Shown here piece after piece: positions 2,777-13,545 of a stretch of DNA of 41,524 nt (position 1 is its first letter; each line of letters opens with the position of its first letter). The DNA comes from a virus. Its lineage: Duplodnaviria > Caudoviricetes. A program made the position numbers and the translations under genes. The notes beneath the pieces were generated by a model, which saw only the letters and a program-made list of their open reading frames with translations, was not told the DNA's origin and searched no databases. The stretch spans positions 1 to 41,524 of the IMG/VR virus record IMGVR_UViG_3300033067_000697; one strand, 5' to 3'.

Positions 2777-2778
2777 AT

Positions 2779-2949
2779 CTAATTCATTAAACTTCCTAGT
2801 AAATAATCAGCTAGTCCAGTCCATTCCAAAATCAAAGCAGTAACTCCGGCCCCGACAGCAAAATTAACAAGGTTGATGAGTCGGACACTTGGTTCTTCTT
2901 TGTAGTACTCTCCGGTGATTTCGTTATCTAAGTTATGATGTCTTTTCAT
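2779..2949 (-). CDS. small membrane protein (56 aa)
   Basis: hand-translated MKRHHNLDNE...LINLVNFAVGAGVTALILEW...; ATGA overlap with the upstream ORF. Confidence 0.6.
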   Translation of the reverse strand: MKRHHNLDNEITGEYYKEEPSVRLINLVNFAVGAGVTALILEWTGLADYLLGSLMN

Positions 2950-3068
2950 AGTGATTCACTAACAATTACTTCCTCTCTTTTCATTTCAGTAAAGGTGTTG
3001 TAGATAGCTTGTTCTATTTCTCTGGCGGTGTAGCCATCTCCGGCTAACATAACAATAAATTTCTGCAT
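2946..3068 (-). CDS. hypothetical protein (40 aa)
   Basis: hand-translated MQKFIVMLAGDGYTAREIEQAIY...; 1-nt gap from the upstream stop. Confidence 0.55.
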   Translation of the reverse strand: MQKFIVMLAGDGYTAREIEQAIYNTFTEMKREEVIVSESL

Positions 3069-3069
3069 A

Positions 3070-3204
3070 TTAGTAAACTAAACCTTCTGCTGGATAATTG
3101 TTCATCTCCGCCTGTAGTGCTTCTCGTTCCTCTTGGTAACTCTGTTCATCTTCATTCTTTTCTACCCACGGTGCTACATCTCTATCGTCTAATGGTTGTG
3201 TCAT
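3070..3204 (-). CDS. small acidic protein (44 aa), first gene after a promoter
   Basis: hand-translated MTQPLDDRDVAPWVEKNEDEQSYQEEREALQ... Confidence 0.6.
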   Translation of the reverse strand: MTQPLDDRDVAPWVEKNEDEQSYQEEREALQAEMNNYPAEGLVY

Positions 3205-3226
3205 AATGATTTACTTAATTGATACC

Positions 3227-3273
3227 TGTATATAGTACTATATACACAATAGGGATGCAAGTGGATATCCCCA
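3227..3273 (-). promoter_or_regulatory. sigma70-type promoter TTGCAT-17-TACTAT with a perfect 20-bp palindrome over -10 and an upstream DnaA-box-like site
   Basis: -35 at 3260-3255, -10 at 3237-3232; palindrome TGTATATAGTACTATATACA 3227-3246; ATATCCCCA 3265-3273. Confidence 0.75.
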
Positions 3274-3278
3274 GGTAC

Positions 3279-3304
3279 AAAAAACCGCCAGTTAAGGCGG
3301 TGTT
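3279..3304 (-). terminator. rho-independent terminator
   Basis: ACCGCC-loop-GGCGGT hairpin followed by a T run on the minus strand. Confidence 0.8.
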
Positions 3305-3307
3305 CTG

Positions 3308-3484
3308 TTATTTATTCTTAACGTATTCTTTTAAAGCTCTAGCTAAAGTGGTATAGGAGTGAGTCATGTTCACTGTACCAAGTTCGCGGGCTACTTGAGC
3401 TAGACTTACTTCATCGTTTGCCCAATTTACTGCTAACTCGATTACTTCAGTGGTAATCTCACGGGTGCTAGTTTTTTTAATCAT
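3308..3484 (-). CDS. small HTH protein (58 aa), candidate repressor
   Basis: hand-translated ...VSLAQVARELGTVNMTHSYTTLARALKEY; TGnTATAGT extended -10 lies a few nt before the ATG (near-leaderless). Confidence 0.65.
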   Translation of the reverse strand: MIKKTSTREITTEVIELAVNWANDEVSLAQVARELGTVNMTHSYTTLARALKEYVKNK

Positions 3485-3505
3485 ATCCTATACTATAGCA
3501 CATGT

Positions 3506-8379: not shown

Positions 8380-9078
8380 CTAGTATTTAATTAGTTTATT
8401 AACCTCTTGGTCTAATTTATAAACGGCCAGGATATTTTTAAAGGCATCTTCTAGTTGTTCAGTATCATACCGACAATAGACATTCCTCTCGGGGTTAAAG
8501 GACACTCCTTTAGGAATATGGACAATAATTGCACCACCTATTTCTGCCTCTGCTTTCATGTCCTTTATGGCTAGGGAATATGCTCCGCATTGCCAAAAAA
8601 ATTTAGTCTGCATTGAACCGGATGTCTTAAAGTCAAGGATATATTTCTTCCCTTCCTTCTCAACCGCCGCATCCATAATTCCGGCATACCATAGGTCTAA
8701 ATGGTAGACAGGAAACTCAGAACGCAACGGTGTATATCCTTCACTGTTCATCCAAGTTAAGACTGAATTTACTATTGGGTCAAGGGTAAACTTCATCTTA
8801 CCTTCAGCAATCCAATTATTCATCGCCTTCTCTAGTAAACTGTGAACCTCTTTCCCCTTGTCTCCGGCTTTGTCACGTATCTTCAAGTGAGCCTTACGTG
8901 CATCCTCTGGACTCTCTCCTCGCTCAATCGCGTCTACTGCTTGGTTCGCCGCCCAGTTCACAAGTGAGCCGGGGTCTCCCCACATCTTCAATACGCTGGT
9001 TACACCGTGAAGGTTCTTCCCATCGTAAGTGTGTATGTGCCGACTCTCCAGGAACTTATATCCTTTCGTCTGTTCCAT
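8380..9078 (-). CDS. PD-(D/E)XK exonuclease (Cas4/lambda-exo-like)
   Basis: GVTSVL, GKEVH, SEFPVY, YAGIMD, ILDFKTS, QCGAY motifs. Confidence 0.9.
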   Translation of the reverse strand: MEQTKGYKFLESRHIHTYDGKNLHGVTSVLKMWGDPGSLVNWAANQAVDAIERGESPEDARKAHLKIRDKAGDKGKEVHSLLEKAMNNWIAEGKMKFTLDPIVNSVLTWMNSEGYTPLRSEFPVYHLDLWYAGIMDAAVEKEGKKYILDFKTSGSMQTKFFWQCGAYSLAIKDMKAEAEIGGAIIVHIPKGVSFNPERNVYCRYDTEQLEDAFKNILAVYKLDQEVNKLIKY

Positions 9079-9105
9079 AATGATTATTTAATTGGTAACT
9101 TGTAT

Positions 9106-9150
9106 ATAATACTATACGTCAAGTAAATATTCAAGTTTATATGGGGAAAA
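9106..9150 (-). promoter_or_regulatory. sigma70-type promoter TTGAAT-17-TATTAT with upstream TTTTCCCCA box
   Basis: -35 9134-9129, -10 9111-9106; box 9150-9142; leader resembles that of the 3260 promoter. Confidence 0.75.
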
Positions 9151-9529
9151 ATCCTAGCAGAGCCGGGTCATCCTTACTCACCATTCGCACACTATGAGCA
9201 CAGCTTTTATAGTTAGTTTCTTCGATAAGGTAATGAGTATCTGTCTCACTTCGCACTACTGCATAGTGATGAAGTCCAATATTAGAATAATAGAAAACCG
9301 CCACTTTACCTTCTGGTTGTATGTTATTTAAAATAGTAGCTGTCGATGGAAGAGAAGGATAGACACCCTTAACGTACCGATAGCAATTACATAGCTCTGG
9401 TTGCAATAAAACAATCTCCCCGGAAACTTTAGAAAAGTCCATGAAGACCTCAGGTTCTATATATTCTCCCGGTTGAGCTATTGCTACGGAAGGGAGAAGT
9501 AAAAGTATTAAAAGTAATACACGTTTTAT
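9137..9529 (-). CDS. secreted CHAP-like cysteine peptidase/amidase with an apparent non-canonical (ATA) start
   Basis: C(NC)YRYVK...HYAVV...IEETNY catalytic pattern; frame extends 29 codons above the called Met to IKRVLLLILLLPSVAIA/Q, a signal peptide; no in-frame ATG/GTG/TTG before the upstream TGA. Confidence 0.7.
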   Translation of the reverse strand: MKRVLLLILLLLPSVAIAQPGEYIEPEVFMDFSKVSGEIVLLQPELCNCYRYVKGVYPSLPSTATILNNIQPEGKVAVFYYSNIGLHHYAVVRSETDTHYLIEETNYKSCAHSVRMVSKDDPALLGFFPI

Positions 9530-9616
9530 AAGCCATTTCTTACGTCATACTGAGTTCTCAAGTTAGATGCAGGGACTAATCCGCCGACTAACTATGCCTT
9601 GCTGTAAGATGGACTC
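9530..9616 (-). ncRNA. candidate structured cis-regulatory RNA upstream of the CHAP gene
   Basis: CCAU-CUUAC/GUAAG-AA-AUGG closing stem, CAUA/UAUG, GUUAG/CUAAC, GGA-UUAG-UCC, UGA-GAAC-UCA. Confidence 0.55.
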
Positions 9617-9637
9617 ACCGCCGTTTGTGGAACCCTA

Positions 9638-9697
9638 ATTGTATCACAGACTTATCCCCAATAACTCTCTGGTGTGGATTACCTTATGCTGTATAAT
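9638..9697. promoter_or_regulatory. central divergent promoter region with two DnaA-box-like sites
   Basis: leftward TGnTACAAT near 9646-9638, rightward TATAAT 9692-9697; TTATCCCCA 9652-9660 and TGTGGATTA 9673-9681; gene orientation switches here. Confidence 0.7.
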
Positions 9698-9719
9698 ATA
9701 TAAGATAGTTCTTTCAAAT

Positions 9720-9858
9720 ACCCCCAGATGGTCTTAGCTCCTCCTTCGTTCCAAATAGTTTTATAGCACTTCAAAATAACAACACGAATCTCTGGTGGCA
9801 ATCCCACCCAAATTGCGAAAGGTTACGGGGCCAGTTAAGTTCAACGCTTAACGGGGGT
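9720..9858 (+). ncRNA. candidate structured leader/ncRNA before the chaperonin operon
   Basis: ACCCCC/GGGGGT closing pair, CCAGA/TCTGG, TTCGT/ACGAA, GGTGG-CAATC-CCACC and GTTAAG-7-CTTAAC hairpins; no ORF. Confidence 0.45.
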
Positions 9859-9882
9859 TCATTAAAAATAATTTAAATAAAT

Positions 9883-10080
9883 ATGACAGAAGAAGAACGA
9901 AGAGAGAAAGGTGCCGTCTTTATGAAAGAGTATGGTGAATTAGTAGAGAAACACCAAATAGACTTTGCTACCTATCCAGTGTTCATCCCAGATGGTCAGG
10001 GAGGATTTAAGATAGTAGTCCAGAGTACACCAATAGACATCTCAAAGAAGCCGGAGCCACTTATCGCTAAAGAGAAATAA
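9883..10080 (+). CDS. hypothetical protein
   Basis: ORF track; first gene of the rightward operon, AT-rich leader. Confidence 0.75.
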   Translation: MTEEERREKGAVFMKEYGELVEKHQIDFATYPVFIPDGQGGFKIVVQSTPIDISKKPEPLIAKEK

Positions 10081-10081
10081 T

Positions 10082-10303
10082 ATGTTTAAGCGGATTAAAA
10101 ACCTGCTAGAACTTAGCAAATACACAGTGGATGAAATAAGACAGAAAGAACCCACAGTCTTTCACACTGATGGAGATTCTCTGTTCCCTCACAGTCACGA
10201 ATACCGCCCGGCTACGATAGTAGATTTAAAAGGCACTAACCCCTTTGATGAATATGAAACCACTGAACAATCATCTAATGATACAACCCCTAGAAACGGA
10301 TAG
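10082..10303 (+). CDS. hypothetical protein
   Basis: ORF track; 1-nt gap from the previous stop. Confidence 0.65.
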   Translation: MFKRIKNLLELSKYTVDEIRQKEPTVFHTDGDSLFPHSHEYRPATIVDLKGTNPFDEYETTEQSSNDTTPRNG

Positions 10304-10502
10304 CTTCATGGCTATGCAGAAGACCACCTACGAAGAGGTTGGTGTGGTTTTAGATGCCGCAGAATCAGGTAAGCTCTTGATTGGTTGCCACGTTTACTTT
10401 GACTCATGGTTAGCTAAGAAGTTCCCAGTTACAGGTATGACAGATAAGTTTGTCTGGTTTGTTAAGTTTGAAGACGTAGTAGCTTATGAGCCGTTACCTT
10501 AA
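10254..10502 (+). CDS. groES: co-chaperonin GroES (Cpn10)-like, divergent
   Basis: MKPLNNHLMIQP (cf. IRPLHDRVIVK), GVVLDAA, GCHVYF, FVKFEDVVA (cf. IMSESDILA); 82 aa; same operon as groEL. Confidence 0.75.
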   Translation: MKPLNNHLMIQPLETDSFMAMQKTTYEEVGVVLDAAESGKLLIGCHVYFDSWLAKKFPVTGMTDKFVWFVKFEDVVAYEPLP

Positions 10503-11225: not shown

Positions 11226-12734
11226 ATGTTTGATGATAATTTACATGTTGGTAAAGAAGCAAGAAGTGGTCTAATACAGGGAATAATGAAAGCGGCAAGT
11301 GCTGTTGGAGCAACAATGGGGACAAGAGGTGCAAACTGTTTAATCCAATGTATTGAAAACCCACAACATTACGTAACCAACGATGGAGCTACTATCCTCC
11401 AGTCAATCCACTTTGCTGACCCACTAGAAGAGATGGGTAAAAACATTCTGGTTGAAGCAGTATCAAGAGCTAACAAGCAATCAGGCGATGGTTCATCGAC
11501 TACTACCGTACTCACCGCCGCCATCATTGAAGAAGGACTGAAGTGTACAGACAACGCTATAGACATTAAGCGTTCACTAGAAGAAGCTCTACCGATTGTA
11601 GAAGAGCAAATCAAAGCTCAGTCCAAGGAGATAACGGTAGAAACAGTAGCTCAAGTGGCTACCATATCCGCCGAAGATGAAGAGATAGGTAACAGAATAC
11701 AAGACATCTATCAACAGATAGGCAAGGATGGAATAGTCTATTGGGATGTATCAAAGACCACCGAAGACTCATACTCTATTGGTACGGGAATCAACATCCA
11801 CGATGCCGGGTTCCTTTCACCATACATGTGTGATGCTAATGATGCTGGACAGAACACCAACCAAATCCGCCTCAAGAATCCATACATCCTAGTAACTAAA
11901 CAGAAGATTACCTCAGCCGTAGACTTTGAGAAGATAGGAGCTGAACTATTCGCTAAGACAGTCACAGACCTAGTAGTGTTTGCGGATGAAGTAGAACCAC
12001 TAGTAGTCCCAGACCTCATTAAGACTCGTATGATGCGTGGCTTCCGTTTCATTATCGTAAAGATGCCAACTATCTGGAAAGACCAATGGTTTGAAGACAT
12101 AGCTCTAGCCAGTGGAGCCAAGCTCGTAGACCCTAGTGCTGGACTACCAATGCGTGAAGTCAAGATGGAACACCTAGGTACAGTCGGAGACATCATCATC
12201 ACTAAGTCAGACACCTACATTGATGGGATTAAAGACCTAAGTGAACACGTAAAGAAGCTAGAGGATGAAGCAACCGATGAAACAGCACACCGAGCTTCAC
12301 GACTCAACACCAAAACCGCCAGATACTTTGTGGGAGCACCAAGCGAATCAGCCCTTTCTTATCGTAGACTAAAGGTAGAAGATGCTATCTCAGCCGCCTA
12401 CCAAGCCCTACACGGTGGTATCGTTCCGGGAGCTGGTAACGCTATGGCTTGTGTTCACCTACCAGATACGATTGGAGGAAGAATACTTGAAGTAGCCCTA
12501 CTCAAACCAATGCTTCAGATTATGAGTAACGCCGGGATAACAATTAAGACCGAGCCAGCCAAAGGTAAAGGCTATGACACACGTACCCGTGAGTTAGTAG
12601 ACCTAGTAGAAGCTGGAATAGTAAACCCAACCAACGTGGAGATTAACGCTATCCGTAACGCTATCAGTGTAGCCGCCACAGTATTATCAGCACCAACAGT
12701 TGTAACCTTACCAAAACATGATACGCCTCTTTAG
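11226..12734 (+). CDS. groEL: chaperonin GroEL (Cpn60), phage-encoded, divergent
   Basis: TMGTRGAN, VTNDGATI, GDGSSTTTVL, QVATISA, EDIALASG, KVEDAISA, GIVPGAG, AGIVNP motifs. Confidence 0.95.
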   Translation: MFDDNLHVGKEARSGLIQGIMKAASAVGATMGTRGANCLIQCIENPQHYVTNDGATILQSIHFADPLEEMGKNILVEAVSRANKQSGDGSSTTTVLTAAIIEEGLKCTDNAIDIKRSLEEALPIVEEQIKAQSKEITVETVAQVATISAEDEEIGNRIQDIYQQIGKDGIVYWDVSKTTEDSYSIGTGINIHDAGFLSPYMCDANDAGQNTNQIRLKNPYILVTKQKITSAVDFEKIGAELFAKTVTDLVVFADEVEPLVVPDLIKTRMMRGFRFIIVKMPTIWKDQWFEDIALASGAKLVDPSAGLPMREVKMEHLGTVGDIIITKSDTYIDGIKDLSEHVKKLEDEATDETAHRASRLNTKTARYFVGAPSESALSYRRLKVEDAISAAYQALHGGIVPGAGNAMACVHLPDTIGGRILEVALLKPMLQIMSNAGITIKTEPAKGKGYDTRTRELVDLVEAGIVNPTNVEINAIRNAISVAATVLSAPTVVTLPKHDTPL

Positions 12735-12873
12735 CAAGTGCGAGAACTGCAAGAAGAGAAGTCTATTCGTAATGAATAGAACTATTGAAGTACCAAAGAG
12801 TAACTTAACCGCCACATCTAAAACACTATTATGTCAGACCTGCACCAACAAACTAAAGAAAGTCCTCTCGTAA
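12718..12873 (+). CDS. small CxxC..CxxC zinc-finger protein (51 aa)
   Basis: hand-translated MIRLFSKCENCKKR...LLCQTCTNKLKKVLS. Confidence 0.6.
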   Translation: MIRLFSKCENCKKRSLFVMNRTIEVPKSNLTATSKTLLCQTCTNKLKKVLS

Positions 12874-13007
12874 AAGAAGGAGAGATACTACTCAAACGCC
12901 AGGAAGACGGGAACTGGAAGGGGTACCTGCTACGAGATAAGGAACTACTCCAAGTCCGCGAGATAGACCCCTATACATCCTTGATGAAACTACTCACCCA
13001 CCCCTAA
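12831..13007 (+). CDS. hypothetical protein (58 aa)
   Basis: hand-translated ...KEGEILLKRQEDGNWKGYLLRDKELLQVREIDPYTSLMKLLTHP. Confidence 0.55.
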   Translation: MSDLHQQTKESPLVKEGEILLKRQEDGNWKGYLLRDKELLQVREIDPYTSLMKLLTHP

Positions 13008-13009
13008 AA

Positions 13010-13150
13010 TTGGGCAAATCCGGGAAAGCACTTTAAAAAAAGACCTTTCCAAAAAAAGTTTTTGAAAAAAGTCAGGAAACAGTTGAAAAGTTTTGGAAAA
13101 AAGGTCCTTACGCGTACGCGCGCGGGGATAGGGGTATACCTAGGGGGAAC
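13010..13150. other. candidate packaging/terminus region: A/T tracts, imperfect repeats, CG-alternating run, TAGGGG..CCTAGGGGGA
   Basis: non-coding; AAAAGTTTT(T/G)GAAAAAAG(G)TC twice; TACGCGTACGCGCGCG 13109-13124. Confidence 0.45.
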
Positions 13151-13295
13151 CAAATAAAATAACCTTCTATGGGGTATTTCTGATGTCGCACAATATTATT
13201 TATTACACAATAATATTGCAATATGTAAATAGTTAGTATTACACAATACAATTATATAATGTCTAGCTACTAAGCAATACTATATATGACAAAGT

Positions 13296-13322
13296 ACCCC
13301 GCTATTTTACAAGCGGGGTTTT
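13296..13322 (+). terminator. rho-independent terminator
   Basis: ACCCCGC-loop-GCGGGGT-TTT. Confidence 0.7.
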
Positions 13323-13354
13323 ATGTTGCCTATTACCTAGCTGATAGGTATAAG

Positions 13355-13393
13355 TGGGGATAACTTGACATAGCTAACTGTTAGGTATAGTAT
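13355..13393 (+). promoter_or_regulatory. strong early sigma70 promoter TTGACA-17-TAGTAT with TGGGGATAA box 1 nt upstream
   Basis: consensus -35 at 13365-13370; box 13355-13363. Confidence 0.85.
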
Positions 13394-13439
13394 AGTAATA
13401 GATAGCAGTAAGGACATAAAAAACTGCTACAAAATAATT

Positions 13440-13541
13440 ATGCAATATATAGCAATAGGAAAGATTAAAAATATAAACGGCGTGTGGACTATGTATTACT
13501 ATGCTGGTGGTAGATTTATGGCAGTTATAAAACTTATATAA
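13440..13541 (+). CDS. early peptide (33 aa)
   Basis: hand-translated MQYIAIGKIKNINGVWTMYYYAGGRFMAVIKLI; starts ATGCAA like its neighbours. Confidence 0.5.
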   Translation: MQYIAIGKIKNINGVWTMYYYAGGRFMAVIKLI

Positions 13542-13545
13542 CAAC

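What the first reader, a model, noticed from the sequence alone, without database searches (positions are those of the whole stretch)
9137..9640. Multibranch RNA abutting an apparent ATA start of a secreted CHAP hydrolase
Seen: the CHAP frame extends 29 codons above the called Met and encodes a clear signal peptide (IKRVLLLILLLPSVAIA/Q), but there is no ATG/GTG/TTG before an in-frame TGA. The plausible start, ATA at 9529, follows directly on the 3' strand of an ~87-nt three-way-junction structure (9616-9530) that also buries an out-of-frame AUG. The gene is first in the leftward arm, far from the lysis cassette. Inference: a riboswitch-like or initiation-directing RNA limits a wall-remodelling enzyme expressed early, for example for superinfection exclusion, host resuscitation, or action on the partner cell of an epibiont host.
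Basis: partly seen in the sequence, partly recalled or inferred. Interest (0 to 1): 0.72.

Follow-up and report, generated by a model that had tools for sequence, protein, structure and literature searches.

The report
Folded RNA leader for AUA-started hydrolases
A conserved folded RNA sits directly in front of a secreted wall-cutting enzyme gene that has no standard start codon, and the same RNA followed by an isoleucine codon recurs before a second, unrelated enzyme family, so it likely gates translation from a weak AUA start in phages that probably infect Patescibacteria.

Summary
The missing start codon is real. Contigs from two other studies span 9480-9668 with no indel at 9524-9536. In 25 related loci an AUA/AUU/AUC codon, never AUG, opens the signal peptide, usually after GRCUU; 18 have no in-frame ATG/GTG/TTG, and in four a stop lies two codons upstream. 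The protein has the NlpC/P60-CHAP fold. The 87-nt fold is no more stable than shuffles (z -0.43) and its closing stem does not covary. Its central arm is real: a 40-43-nt GCA...UGAGA hairpin with a UAGUC loop, covarying in two disjoint sets (0/500 shuffles), behind an extended -10 promoter. An RNA-only search found the same element before a secreted lysozyme/SLT-like family, again with ATA. Five Patescibacteria genome loci share the GRCUU-AUH start; 16 AUG-started relatives lack it. No Rfam match. Best reading (0.5): a translational valve, in which a weak SD-less AUH start is gated by the hairpin. Bolder reading (0.2): a natural bacterial IRES-like element. Nothing was tested experimentally; the host is inferred.

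The parts
9638..9646 (-). Extended -10 promoter-like motif TGATACAAT; predicted transcription start near 9631
   Evidence: Same motif class 103-121 nt above the start codon in 11 of 12 class I loci (the L030 match is a plain -10 hexamer, none in L028); not reported by the two-hexamer scan; not tested
9530..9631 (-). Predicted ~100-nt 5' leader RNA (class I element)
   Evidence: Alignments; covariance models R1 and R2 built on disjoint sets detect each other's members
9557..9597 (-). Conserved long hairpin: GCA, outer helix, inner helix, 7-nt loop, closing UGAG
   Evidence: Outer 43/48 and inner 54/60 pairs vs 28.0 and 41.8 in partner swaps, 0/10000; 80.3% and 76.5% of cells paired, 0/500; C9583/G9570 changes to U-A in the X3 contig
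9574..9580 (-). Hairpin loop AUUAGUC (consensus NYUAGUC); complementary to GGCU at 9534-9531
   Evidence: 4 possible pairs in 8 of 12 loci, 3 in three, 1 in L030; no two-sided change
9530..9560 (-). Conserved 3' segment: UGAGA, CWG (9552-9550), UAA (9542-9540), GGCUU (9534-9530)
   Evidence: GRCTT precedes 0 of 45 ATG genes of the window
9527..9529 (-). Inferred start codon AUA
   Evidence: AUH in register in 25 loci; in-frame stop two codons upstream in L009, L026, L083, L161; preceding codon is not CTT in L030, L083
9476..9529 (-). Sec-type signal peptide IKRVLLLILLLLPSVAIA, predicted cleavage before QP
   Evidence: Hydrophobic window KD 2.99; AIAQP/AIAEP conserved; no signal-peptide predictor was available
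9137..9529 (-). 130-aa secreted CHAP/NlpC-P60-fold protein; candidate catalytic C49, H88, E104, N106
   Evidence: C, H, N invariant and E at least 90% conserved in 30 sequences (numbering); model and fold searches
9450..9536 (-). Out-of-frame AUG ORF of 28 codons overlapping the start; not conserved
   Evidence: ATG at this position in 6 of 25 loci, a stop codon in 3

Best explanation
A conserved hairpin RNA and a GGCUU motif lie directly before an AUA codon that is the only plausible start of a secreted CHAP-fold protein, and together they likely act as a translational valve that keeps this predicted wall hydrolase low and conditional. Steps. (1, inferred from a conserved motif) The host's housekeeping polymerase transcribes a ~100-nt leader from an extended -10 promoter. 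(2, shown by comparison) The leader folds into a 41-nt hairpin whose helices vary freely while GCA, the UAGUC loop, UGAGA, CWG, UAA and GRCUU stay fixed at set distances from the start. (3, strongly inferred) Translation begins at AUA/AUU/AUC, read by initiator tRNA as in infC, without a Shine-Dalgarno sequence; the 3' module UAA-N-GRCUU is the entry signal for such starts, since it persists in host genes and other phages whose upstream structure differs; U at -1 would add the known pair with tRNAfMet A37. (4, inferred, untested) The hairpin domain gates that signal: its loop can dock on GRCU and hide the bases next to the start, and the conserved junction bases would bind the ligand or protein that shifts the balance. 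The near-cognate codon adds sensitivity to IF3 and nutrient state. (5, inferred) The protein is exported by Sec and cuts peptidoglycan outside the cell; sharing the start signal with host secreted lysozyme-like genes would put it under the same control.
For: No standard start and no indel. AUH in register in 25 loci of two unrelated enzyme families; 18 lack any in-frame NTG. With one fixed rule on 58 genes with an h-region, RCTT-ATH occurs in 1 of 25 that have a nearby ATG and 19 of 33 that do not (p 1.5e-5, relatedness not corrected). Hairpin covariation in disjoint sets. RNA-only pattern search returned 4 loci: one known, two new ones with ATA plus signal peptide plus lysozyme/SLT-like domain, one with no ORF; R1 scores the two at E 2.4e-8 and 4.2e-5. 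Positions -5..-1 are more paired than in the phage's ATG genes (median 0.60 vs 0.35). The phage's other genes: 45 of 46 start ATG, 5 of 46 have an SD-like word. 15 of 30 Patescibacteria infC genes have no in-frame NTG, so these hosts use such starts. AUA/AUU/AUC are known IF3- and nutrient-sensitive starts (PMC5499595, abstract and sections 20, 23; 10.1101/2025.06.19.660503, passages).
Against: No expression, start-site or ligand data. The loop:GRCU pairing has only one-sided changes, fails in L030, and the loop reads UUCGUC in L002 and in one X4 contig while GGCUU is unchanged. The higher pairing at -5..-1 goes with higher GC (0.34 vs 0.30) and the ensemble energy of -35..+15 does not differ (p 0.17). 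In L010, L024 and L062 an in-frame TTG two codons up could serve as the start, and 7 of 25 loci have some upstream NTG. The conserved AUH rather than any weak codon, and the conserved bases touching the start, fit an activating element equally well.
Confidence: 0.5

Rival explanations
1. The leader is an activating, IRES-like element: the 7-nt loop (U-UAG-UC) pairs with the in-frame CUU codon and two bases above it as an anticodon mimic, holding AUH in the ribosome without an SD sequence and perhaps bypassing IF3 proofreading.
For: Loop size and register match an anticodon loop; UAG can read CUU; fixed spacing of loop (-48 to -56) and UGAG (-30 to -35) to the start; element and AUH go together and exclude ATG; only 5 of 14 readable 16S 3' ends in the class of G338 keep the anti-SD (48% of Parcubacteria in PMC9297842, passage), so another positioning device would be useful. 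The likeness to the dicistrovirus IGR-IRES pseudoknot is recalled, not from a call.
Against: No two-sided covariation of the pseudoknot; UUCGUC loop variants; L030 has the loop but ACC before AUU; GRCUU-AUH persists without this loop in L027, L160, L161, L162 and class II. No Rfam family, IRES families included, matched at E<=10. An IGR-type element would not need the first codon to be AUH.
Confidence: 0.22
2. The weak AUH start alone limits a toxic enzyme, and the hairpin has a separate job (mRNA stabiliser, binding site for a phage or host protein acting on transcription or decay, or a small RNA released from the leader).
For: Upstream structures differ among classes while the start signal stays; L027 has only a ~55-nt leader.
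Against: Fixed distance of hairpin to start in 14 loci and two gene families; no terminator-like site in 9000-9950.
Confidence: 0.17
3. Translation starts at the out-of-frame AUG 9536 and shifts +1 in the A run after AUG GCU UAU AAA.
For: ATG at -7 in 6 of 25 loci and a one-mismatch codon in several more; AAAA follows in the window.
Against: The -7 codon is TAG or TGA in three loci and TCG, AAA, CAC, ACC, ACA, GAG in others; the A run is missing in L009, L026, L027, L028.
Confidence: 0.05
4. Assembly error or decayed gene.
For: The A run at 9523-9527 is an error-prone context.
Against: Independent contigs agree; intact frames and the same start in 17 other CHAP loci.
Confidence: 0.01

Closest known systems
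infC (IF3) and other AUU/AUC/AUA-started bacterial genes (PMC5499595; S. aureus infC, ccpN, cvfC1 in 10.1101/2025.06.19.660503)
   Same: Conserved near-cognate AUH start, presumably read by initiator tRNA, giving low and condition-dependent output
   Different: The S. aureus cases rest on an extended SD; many Patescibacteria infC leaders read also show an SD-like word and none shows GGCTT; here there is no SD, the gene is a secreted hydrolase, and a covarying RNA abuts the codon
Cis-regulatory RNA motifs and riboswitches before wall hydrolases (YjbJ motif, PMC11109978 passage; c-di-AMP riboswitch of rpfA, M23, NLPC-P60 and lysM-TM7 motifs, recalled)
   Same: Structured 5' leader tied to peptidoglycan hydrolase genes, with conserved unpaired bases
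   Different: No Rfam match; YjbJ lies about 30 nt above an SD and AUG; no ligand is known here
Dicistrovirus intergenic-region IRES pseudoknot I (recalled)
   Same: A hairpin loop complementary to the codon just before a non-AUG first codon
   Different: Bacterial, about half the size, first codon fixed as AUH, pseudoknot not supported by two-sided covariation, no Rfam match
CHAP / NlpC-P60 peptidoglycan hydrolases (PcsB 4cgk, S. saprophyticus CHAP 2k3a, T. thermophilus 4xcm)
   Same: Fold and conserved Cys, His, Glu, Asn
   Different: Minimal ~85-residue domain with only a signal peptide and a short linker; below Pfam thresholds

Membership tests
CHAP / NlpC-P60 superfamily | Papain-like alpha+beta fold | tested here: met
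   VIA-align Z 8.9 (rmsd 2.8, 84 aligned) to 4xcm and 8.0 to PcsB; the listed rows down to Z 5 are, by their titles, almost all of this superfamily; Foldseek top hit CHAP 2k3a, E 0.017
CHAP / NlpC-P60 superfamily | Conserved catalytic Cys and His with a polar third residue | tested here: met
   C49, H88, N106 invariant and E104 at least 90% conserved in 30 sequences; active-site geometry not measured
Pfam CHAP PF05257 | Score above the curated cut-off | tested here: not met
   No hit for the window protein; 2 of 30 homologues, best E 0.091
CHAP / NlpC-P60 superfamily | Peptidoglycan hydrolysis | not testable with these tools
   No assay
Any Rfam 15 family (riboswitches, leaders, IRES, tRNA, tmRNA) | Covariance-model match | tested here: not met
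   0 hits at gathering in the window, 0 at E<=10 in 9000-10000, none over the leaders of 11 related loci; ARAGORN 0
Riboswitch | Conserved structure and unpaired bases in a 5' leader tied to one functional gene class | tested here: met
Riboswitch | Ligand binding and two alternative folds | not testable with these tools
   The predicted closing stem is not conserved; no ligand data
IGR-type IRES | Codon-anticodon-mimic pseudoknot next to the first codon, supported by covariation | tested here: inconclusive
   4 pairs possible in 8 of 12 loci, one-sided changes only, broken in L030 and weakened in L002, L010, L028
IGR-type IRES | Initiation without initiator tRNA or factors | not testable with these tools
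   Fixed AUH argues for initiator tRNA (inference)
infC-type non-canonical start | Conserved AUU/AUC/AUA in place of AUG | tested here: met
infC-type non-canonical start | Repression by IF3 | not testable with these tools
   IF3 is present in 41 of 41 Patescibacteria genomes searched; effect not measured

The most novel reading that the evidence does not exclude
A natural bacterial IRES-like RNA: a ~100-nt leader that mimics a tRNA anticodon arm on the codon before AUA/AUU/AUC and so starts translation without Shine-Dalgarno pairing in Patescibacteria that have lost the anti-SD, used by hosts and phages as a dedicated channel for making secreted wall hydrolases.
Probability: 0.2. Interest if true: 0.93.

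Novelty: new variant of a known kind. Interest (0 to 1): 0.78.

Why it matters
It defines an RNA family absent from Rfam and a start signal (GRCUU-AUH) that gene callers miss: none of the 29 homologue calls begins at the conserved Ile, most being cut inside or after the signal peptide, so these enzymes are misread as unsecreted. How Patescibacteria start and control translation without an anti-SD is open, and their secreted lytic enzymes have been proposed to breach the partner cell (PMC11665869, passage). A 100-nt element with a clear start codon gives a direct reporter test for a new riboswitch or for structure-directed initiation in bacteria.

Tried and rejected
Stability of the 87-nt and 381-nt folds: z -0.43 and +1.20. 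RNAalifold on the 12-sequence MAFFT alignment gave no pairs because gaps misregister the 3' strand; pairs were then counted from anchors (the window's GCA anchor was off by one there, without changing its pairs) and on two smaller alignments. Closing stem: no cognate preference. First motif pattern: 8 loci, 3 known and 5 unrelated. R1 found nothing in 151 Patescibacteria genomes, R2 nothing in 151 of the class of G338 (strict filters, incomplete genomes: not found in those searched). The short core pattern is not enriched genome-wide in G338 or G325 (14 vs 8 and 15 vs 16 reversed controls) and only the SLT gene among 29 matches looked like a start. No match in INPHARED phages or by sequence in the PDB. 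Host CHAP relatives in 401 genomes were weak, longer proteins; R1 did not match their loci. No RNA holder listed. Complementarity of GRCUU to 16S rRNA near 1492 and likeness of the loop to the 16S 790 loop were set aside: 5-6 bases are expected by chance. A TPP-like UGAGA turn is a recalled likeness with no Rfam support. Cluster look-ups gave no organism names. Earlier scan findings: nothing relevant. A wider degenerate DNA search for distant CHAP genes was not done, so the CHAP sample stays at 18 loci.

Full report
Setting. The window is a complete 41.5-kb virus record with terminase, DnaB, replication protein O, NinG, a GroEL-like gene and an M15 lysin. Of 46 called genes that I tabulated, 45 start with ATG, 5 have an SD-like word, and the leaders are A-rich. 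That, a homologous cassette on a phage-like contig of a Saccharibacteria MAG (L030) and Paceibacterota/Parcubacteria names among relatives of the second enzyme family point to a Patescibacteria host; this is inferred, not shown.

The start codon. The frame 9544-9137 follows an in-frame TGA and has no ATG/GTG/TTG before Met 9442. Contigs of other runs show no indel there: X2 (same study) matches 9414-9555 exactly, X4 covers 9285-9543 without gaps, and X3 and X5 each span 9480-9668 in one piece with no gap at 9524-9536 (3 of 4 runs laid gave cover). Among 29 homologous proteins, most calls begin inside or after the signal peptide and the longer ones read RLI just before it. In DNA, 17 of 18 CHAP loci have ATA, ATT or ATC in register before the h-region, L029 being unclear. 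Adding the second family gives 25 loci (L162 and L163 nearly identical): 18 have no in-frame NTG between the stop and that codon, 7 have one at varying distances, and in L009, L026, L083 and L161 a stop lies two codons upstream; L030 and L083 lack the preceding CTT, so AUH is the invariant. Because I picked those anchors, I ran one fixed rule over 60 hydrolase genes (2 dropped for lacking an h-region; near-duplicate viral loci left out): RCTT-ATH was in 1 of 25 genes with a nearby ATG and 19 of 33 without (the rule misses L010 and L024; relatives are not independent). The out-of-frame AUG is in 6 of 25 and is a stop codon in 3, so a +1 frameshift is not the general route.

The RNA. Comparison shows what is kept. 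Twelve CHAP loci share an extended -10 or -10 motif 103-121 nt upstream (11 of 12), GCA, a 7-nt loop NYUAGUC at -48 to -56, YGAG at -30 to -35, then CWG, UAA and GRCUU. The arms between GCA and UGAG differ freely but pair: 43 of 48 outer and 54 of 60 inner positions against 28.0 and 41.8 in partner swaps, 0 of 10000 (bulge rules were the same in controls; relatedness is not removed). On two disjoint six-sequence alignments 80.3% and 76.5% of cells pair, with 14 and 13 two-sided changes, 0 of 500 shuffles, and all slid controls at or below 47% (structures drawn by me from these sequences). Model R1 found held-out L001 and L010 but L009, L026 and L030 only weakly (E 0.2-1.4) and L028 not at all; model R2, built on those plus L062 and L063, found the window (E 0.002), L001, L002, L003, L005 and L019.

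A second gene family. A pattern made only of leader motifs returned 4 viral loci: one known, one with no ORF, and two where ATA AAA opens a signal peptide and a lysozyme/SLT-like domain (Pfam Lys and SLT_3 below cut-off for L062, none for L063). R1 also marks L083 (E 0.036), whose ORF begins TGA CCG ATA. In 251 genomes of the class of G338, 23 carry a relative; 5 of the 6 best-scoring have GRCTT-ATH and no NTG, 16 more distant ones start with ATG and lack it, 2 are unclear. The host leaders keep the 3' module with other hairpins upstream; only L158 keeps an AGUC loop. L006-L008 carry a longer, different structure after tRNA genes that ends in TAAGC-N-GCTT-ATH, and L027 has a ~55-nt leader with only the 3' part. 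So the design is modular: a start signal, and a variable structured domain above it.

The protein. AlphaFold gives a confident domain from about residue 50; it aligns with NlpC/P60 and CHAP structures (Z 8.9 and 8.0) and keeps Cys, His, Glu, Asn. In close relatives the cassette sits at the divergence point of the two arms; in L009, L026, L028, L030 and L063/L072 it follows the lysin region (gene identities there read from N-termini and recalled).

Mechanism. AUA, AUU and AUC are known starts, autoregulated by IF3 in infC and weakened by nutrient limitation and ppGpp (PMC5499595: abstract, sections 20 and 23; in that work AUA was less IF3-sensitive than AUU). In S. aureus such starts come with extended SD motifs and give about 10-30% of AUG output (10.1101/2025.06.19.660503, passages). 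Patescibacteria keep IF3 (41 of 41), 15 of 30 infC genes lack an in-frame NTG, and only 5 of 14 readable 16S 3' ends keep the anti-SD (16 of 20 loci read; PMC9297842, passage). U at -1 can pair with tRNAfMet A37 (PMC10018350, passages), though U at -1 is common in the phage's ordinary genes too (33 of 46). I therefore read UAA-N-GRCUU-AUH as an SD-less entry site for a weak start and the hairpin as its gate. The loop can pair with GRCU in 8 of 12 loci, which would hide the bases next to the start; the same pairing, read as an anticodon mimic on the in-frame CUU, is the activating alternative. Against both, the support is one-sided, L030 breaks it and UUCGUC loops occur. Direction of control and ligand are untested.

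Novelty. No Rfam family matches. Ten full-text searches listed no paper that by title or abstract describes this element; of the motif surveys I read only passages of PMC11109978, and no supplements. Large surveys of candidate structured RNAs in metagenomes and phages (recalled) keep their motifs in supplements that I did not see and could contain it. I file it as a new variant of known kinds (infC-type start plus cis-regulatory leader), with a 0.2 chance of being a natural bacterial IRES-like element.

Noticed in passing
window 9720-9858 (+); L001 2592-2730 and L005 2629-2748 (minus strand of the loci): A second conserved RNA, divergent from the CHAP leader and just above ORF 9883: 6-bp terminal stem with two-sided changes, AGAUGGUC, a variable arm, and a T-arm-like hairpin with loop UUCRA; tRNA-like or Y-RNA-like. 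L019 matched only the 5' motif. No ARAGORN or Rfam hit.
   Followed up: partly
L006 ~2680-2820, L007 ~2645-2800, L008 ~2585-2743: A longer, different structured leader after tRNA genes, ending GGYGGGYAYTAAGC-N-GCTT-ATH before the same CHAP family; not modelled.
   Followed up: partly
L099-L128: 15 of 30 Patescibacteria infC genes have no in-frame ATG/GTG/TTG; several show an SD-like word followed by ATA, ATT or ATC, even though many genomes of the phylum lack the anti-SD.
   Followed up: partly
L164-L179: ATG-started host SLT-like genes share a short hairpin (for example CCGC-N5-GCGG then TTTT) between a -35/-10 promoter and the start.
   Followed up: no
window 11226-12734 (+): Phage-encoded GroEL-like chaperonin (Cpn60, E 3.7e-31), preceded at 10245-10502 by a small ORF without a Pfam hit that may be its co-chaperonin; conserved in L001-L005 and L019.
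   Followed up: no
L003 5712-5788: Weak YrlA (Y RNA-like) match, E 0.00084, below the gathering score.
   Followed up: no
window 12735-13545 and 2777-3505: Gaps of 700-800 bases with no ORF of 60 aa and no Rfam hit.
   Followed up: no
L074-L076, L082, L029: Further secreted hydrolase genes with no NTG before the h-region and no GRCTT motif; other non-AUG starts are possible.
   Followed up: no
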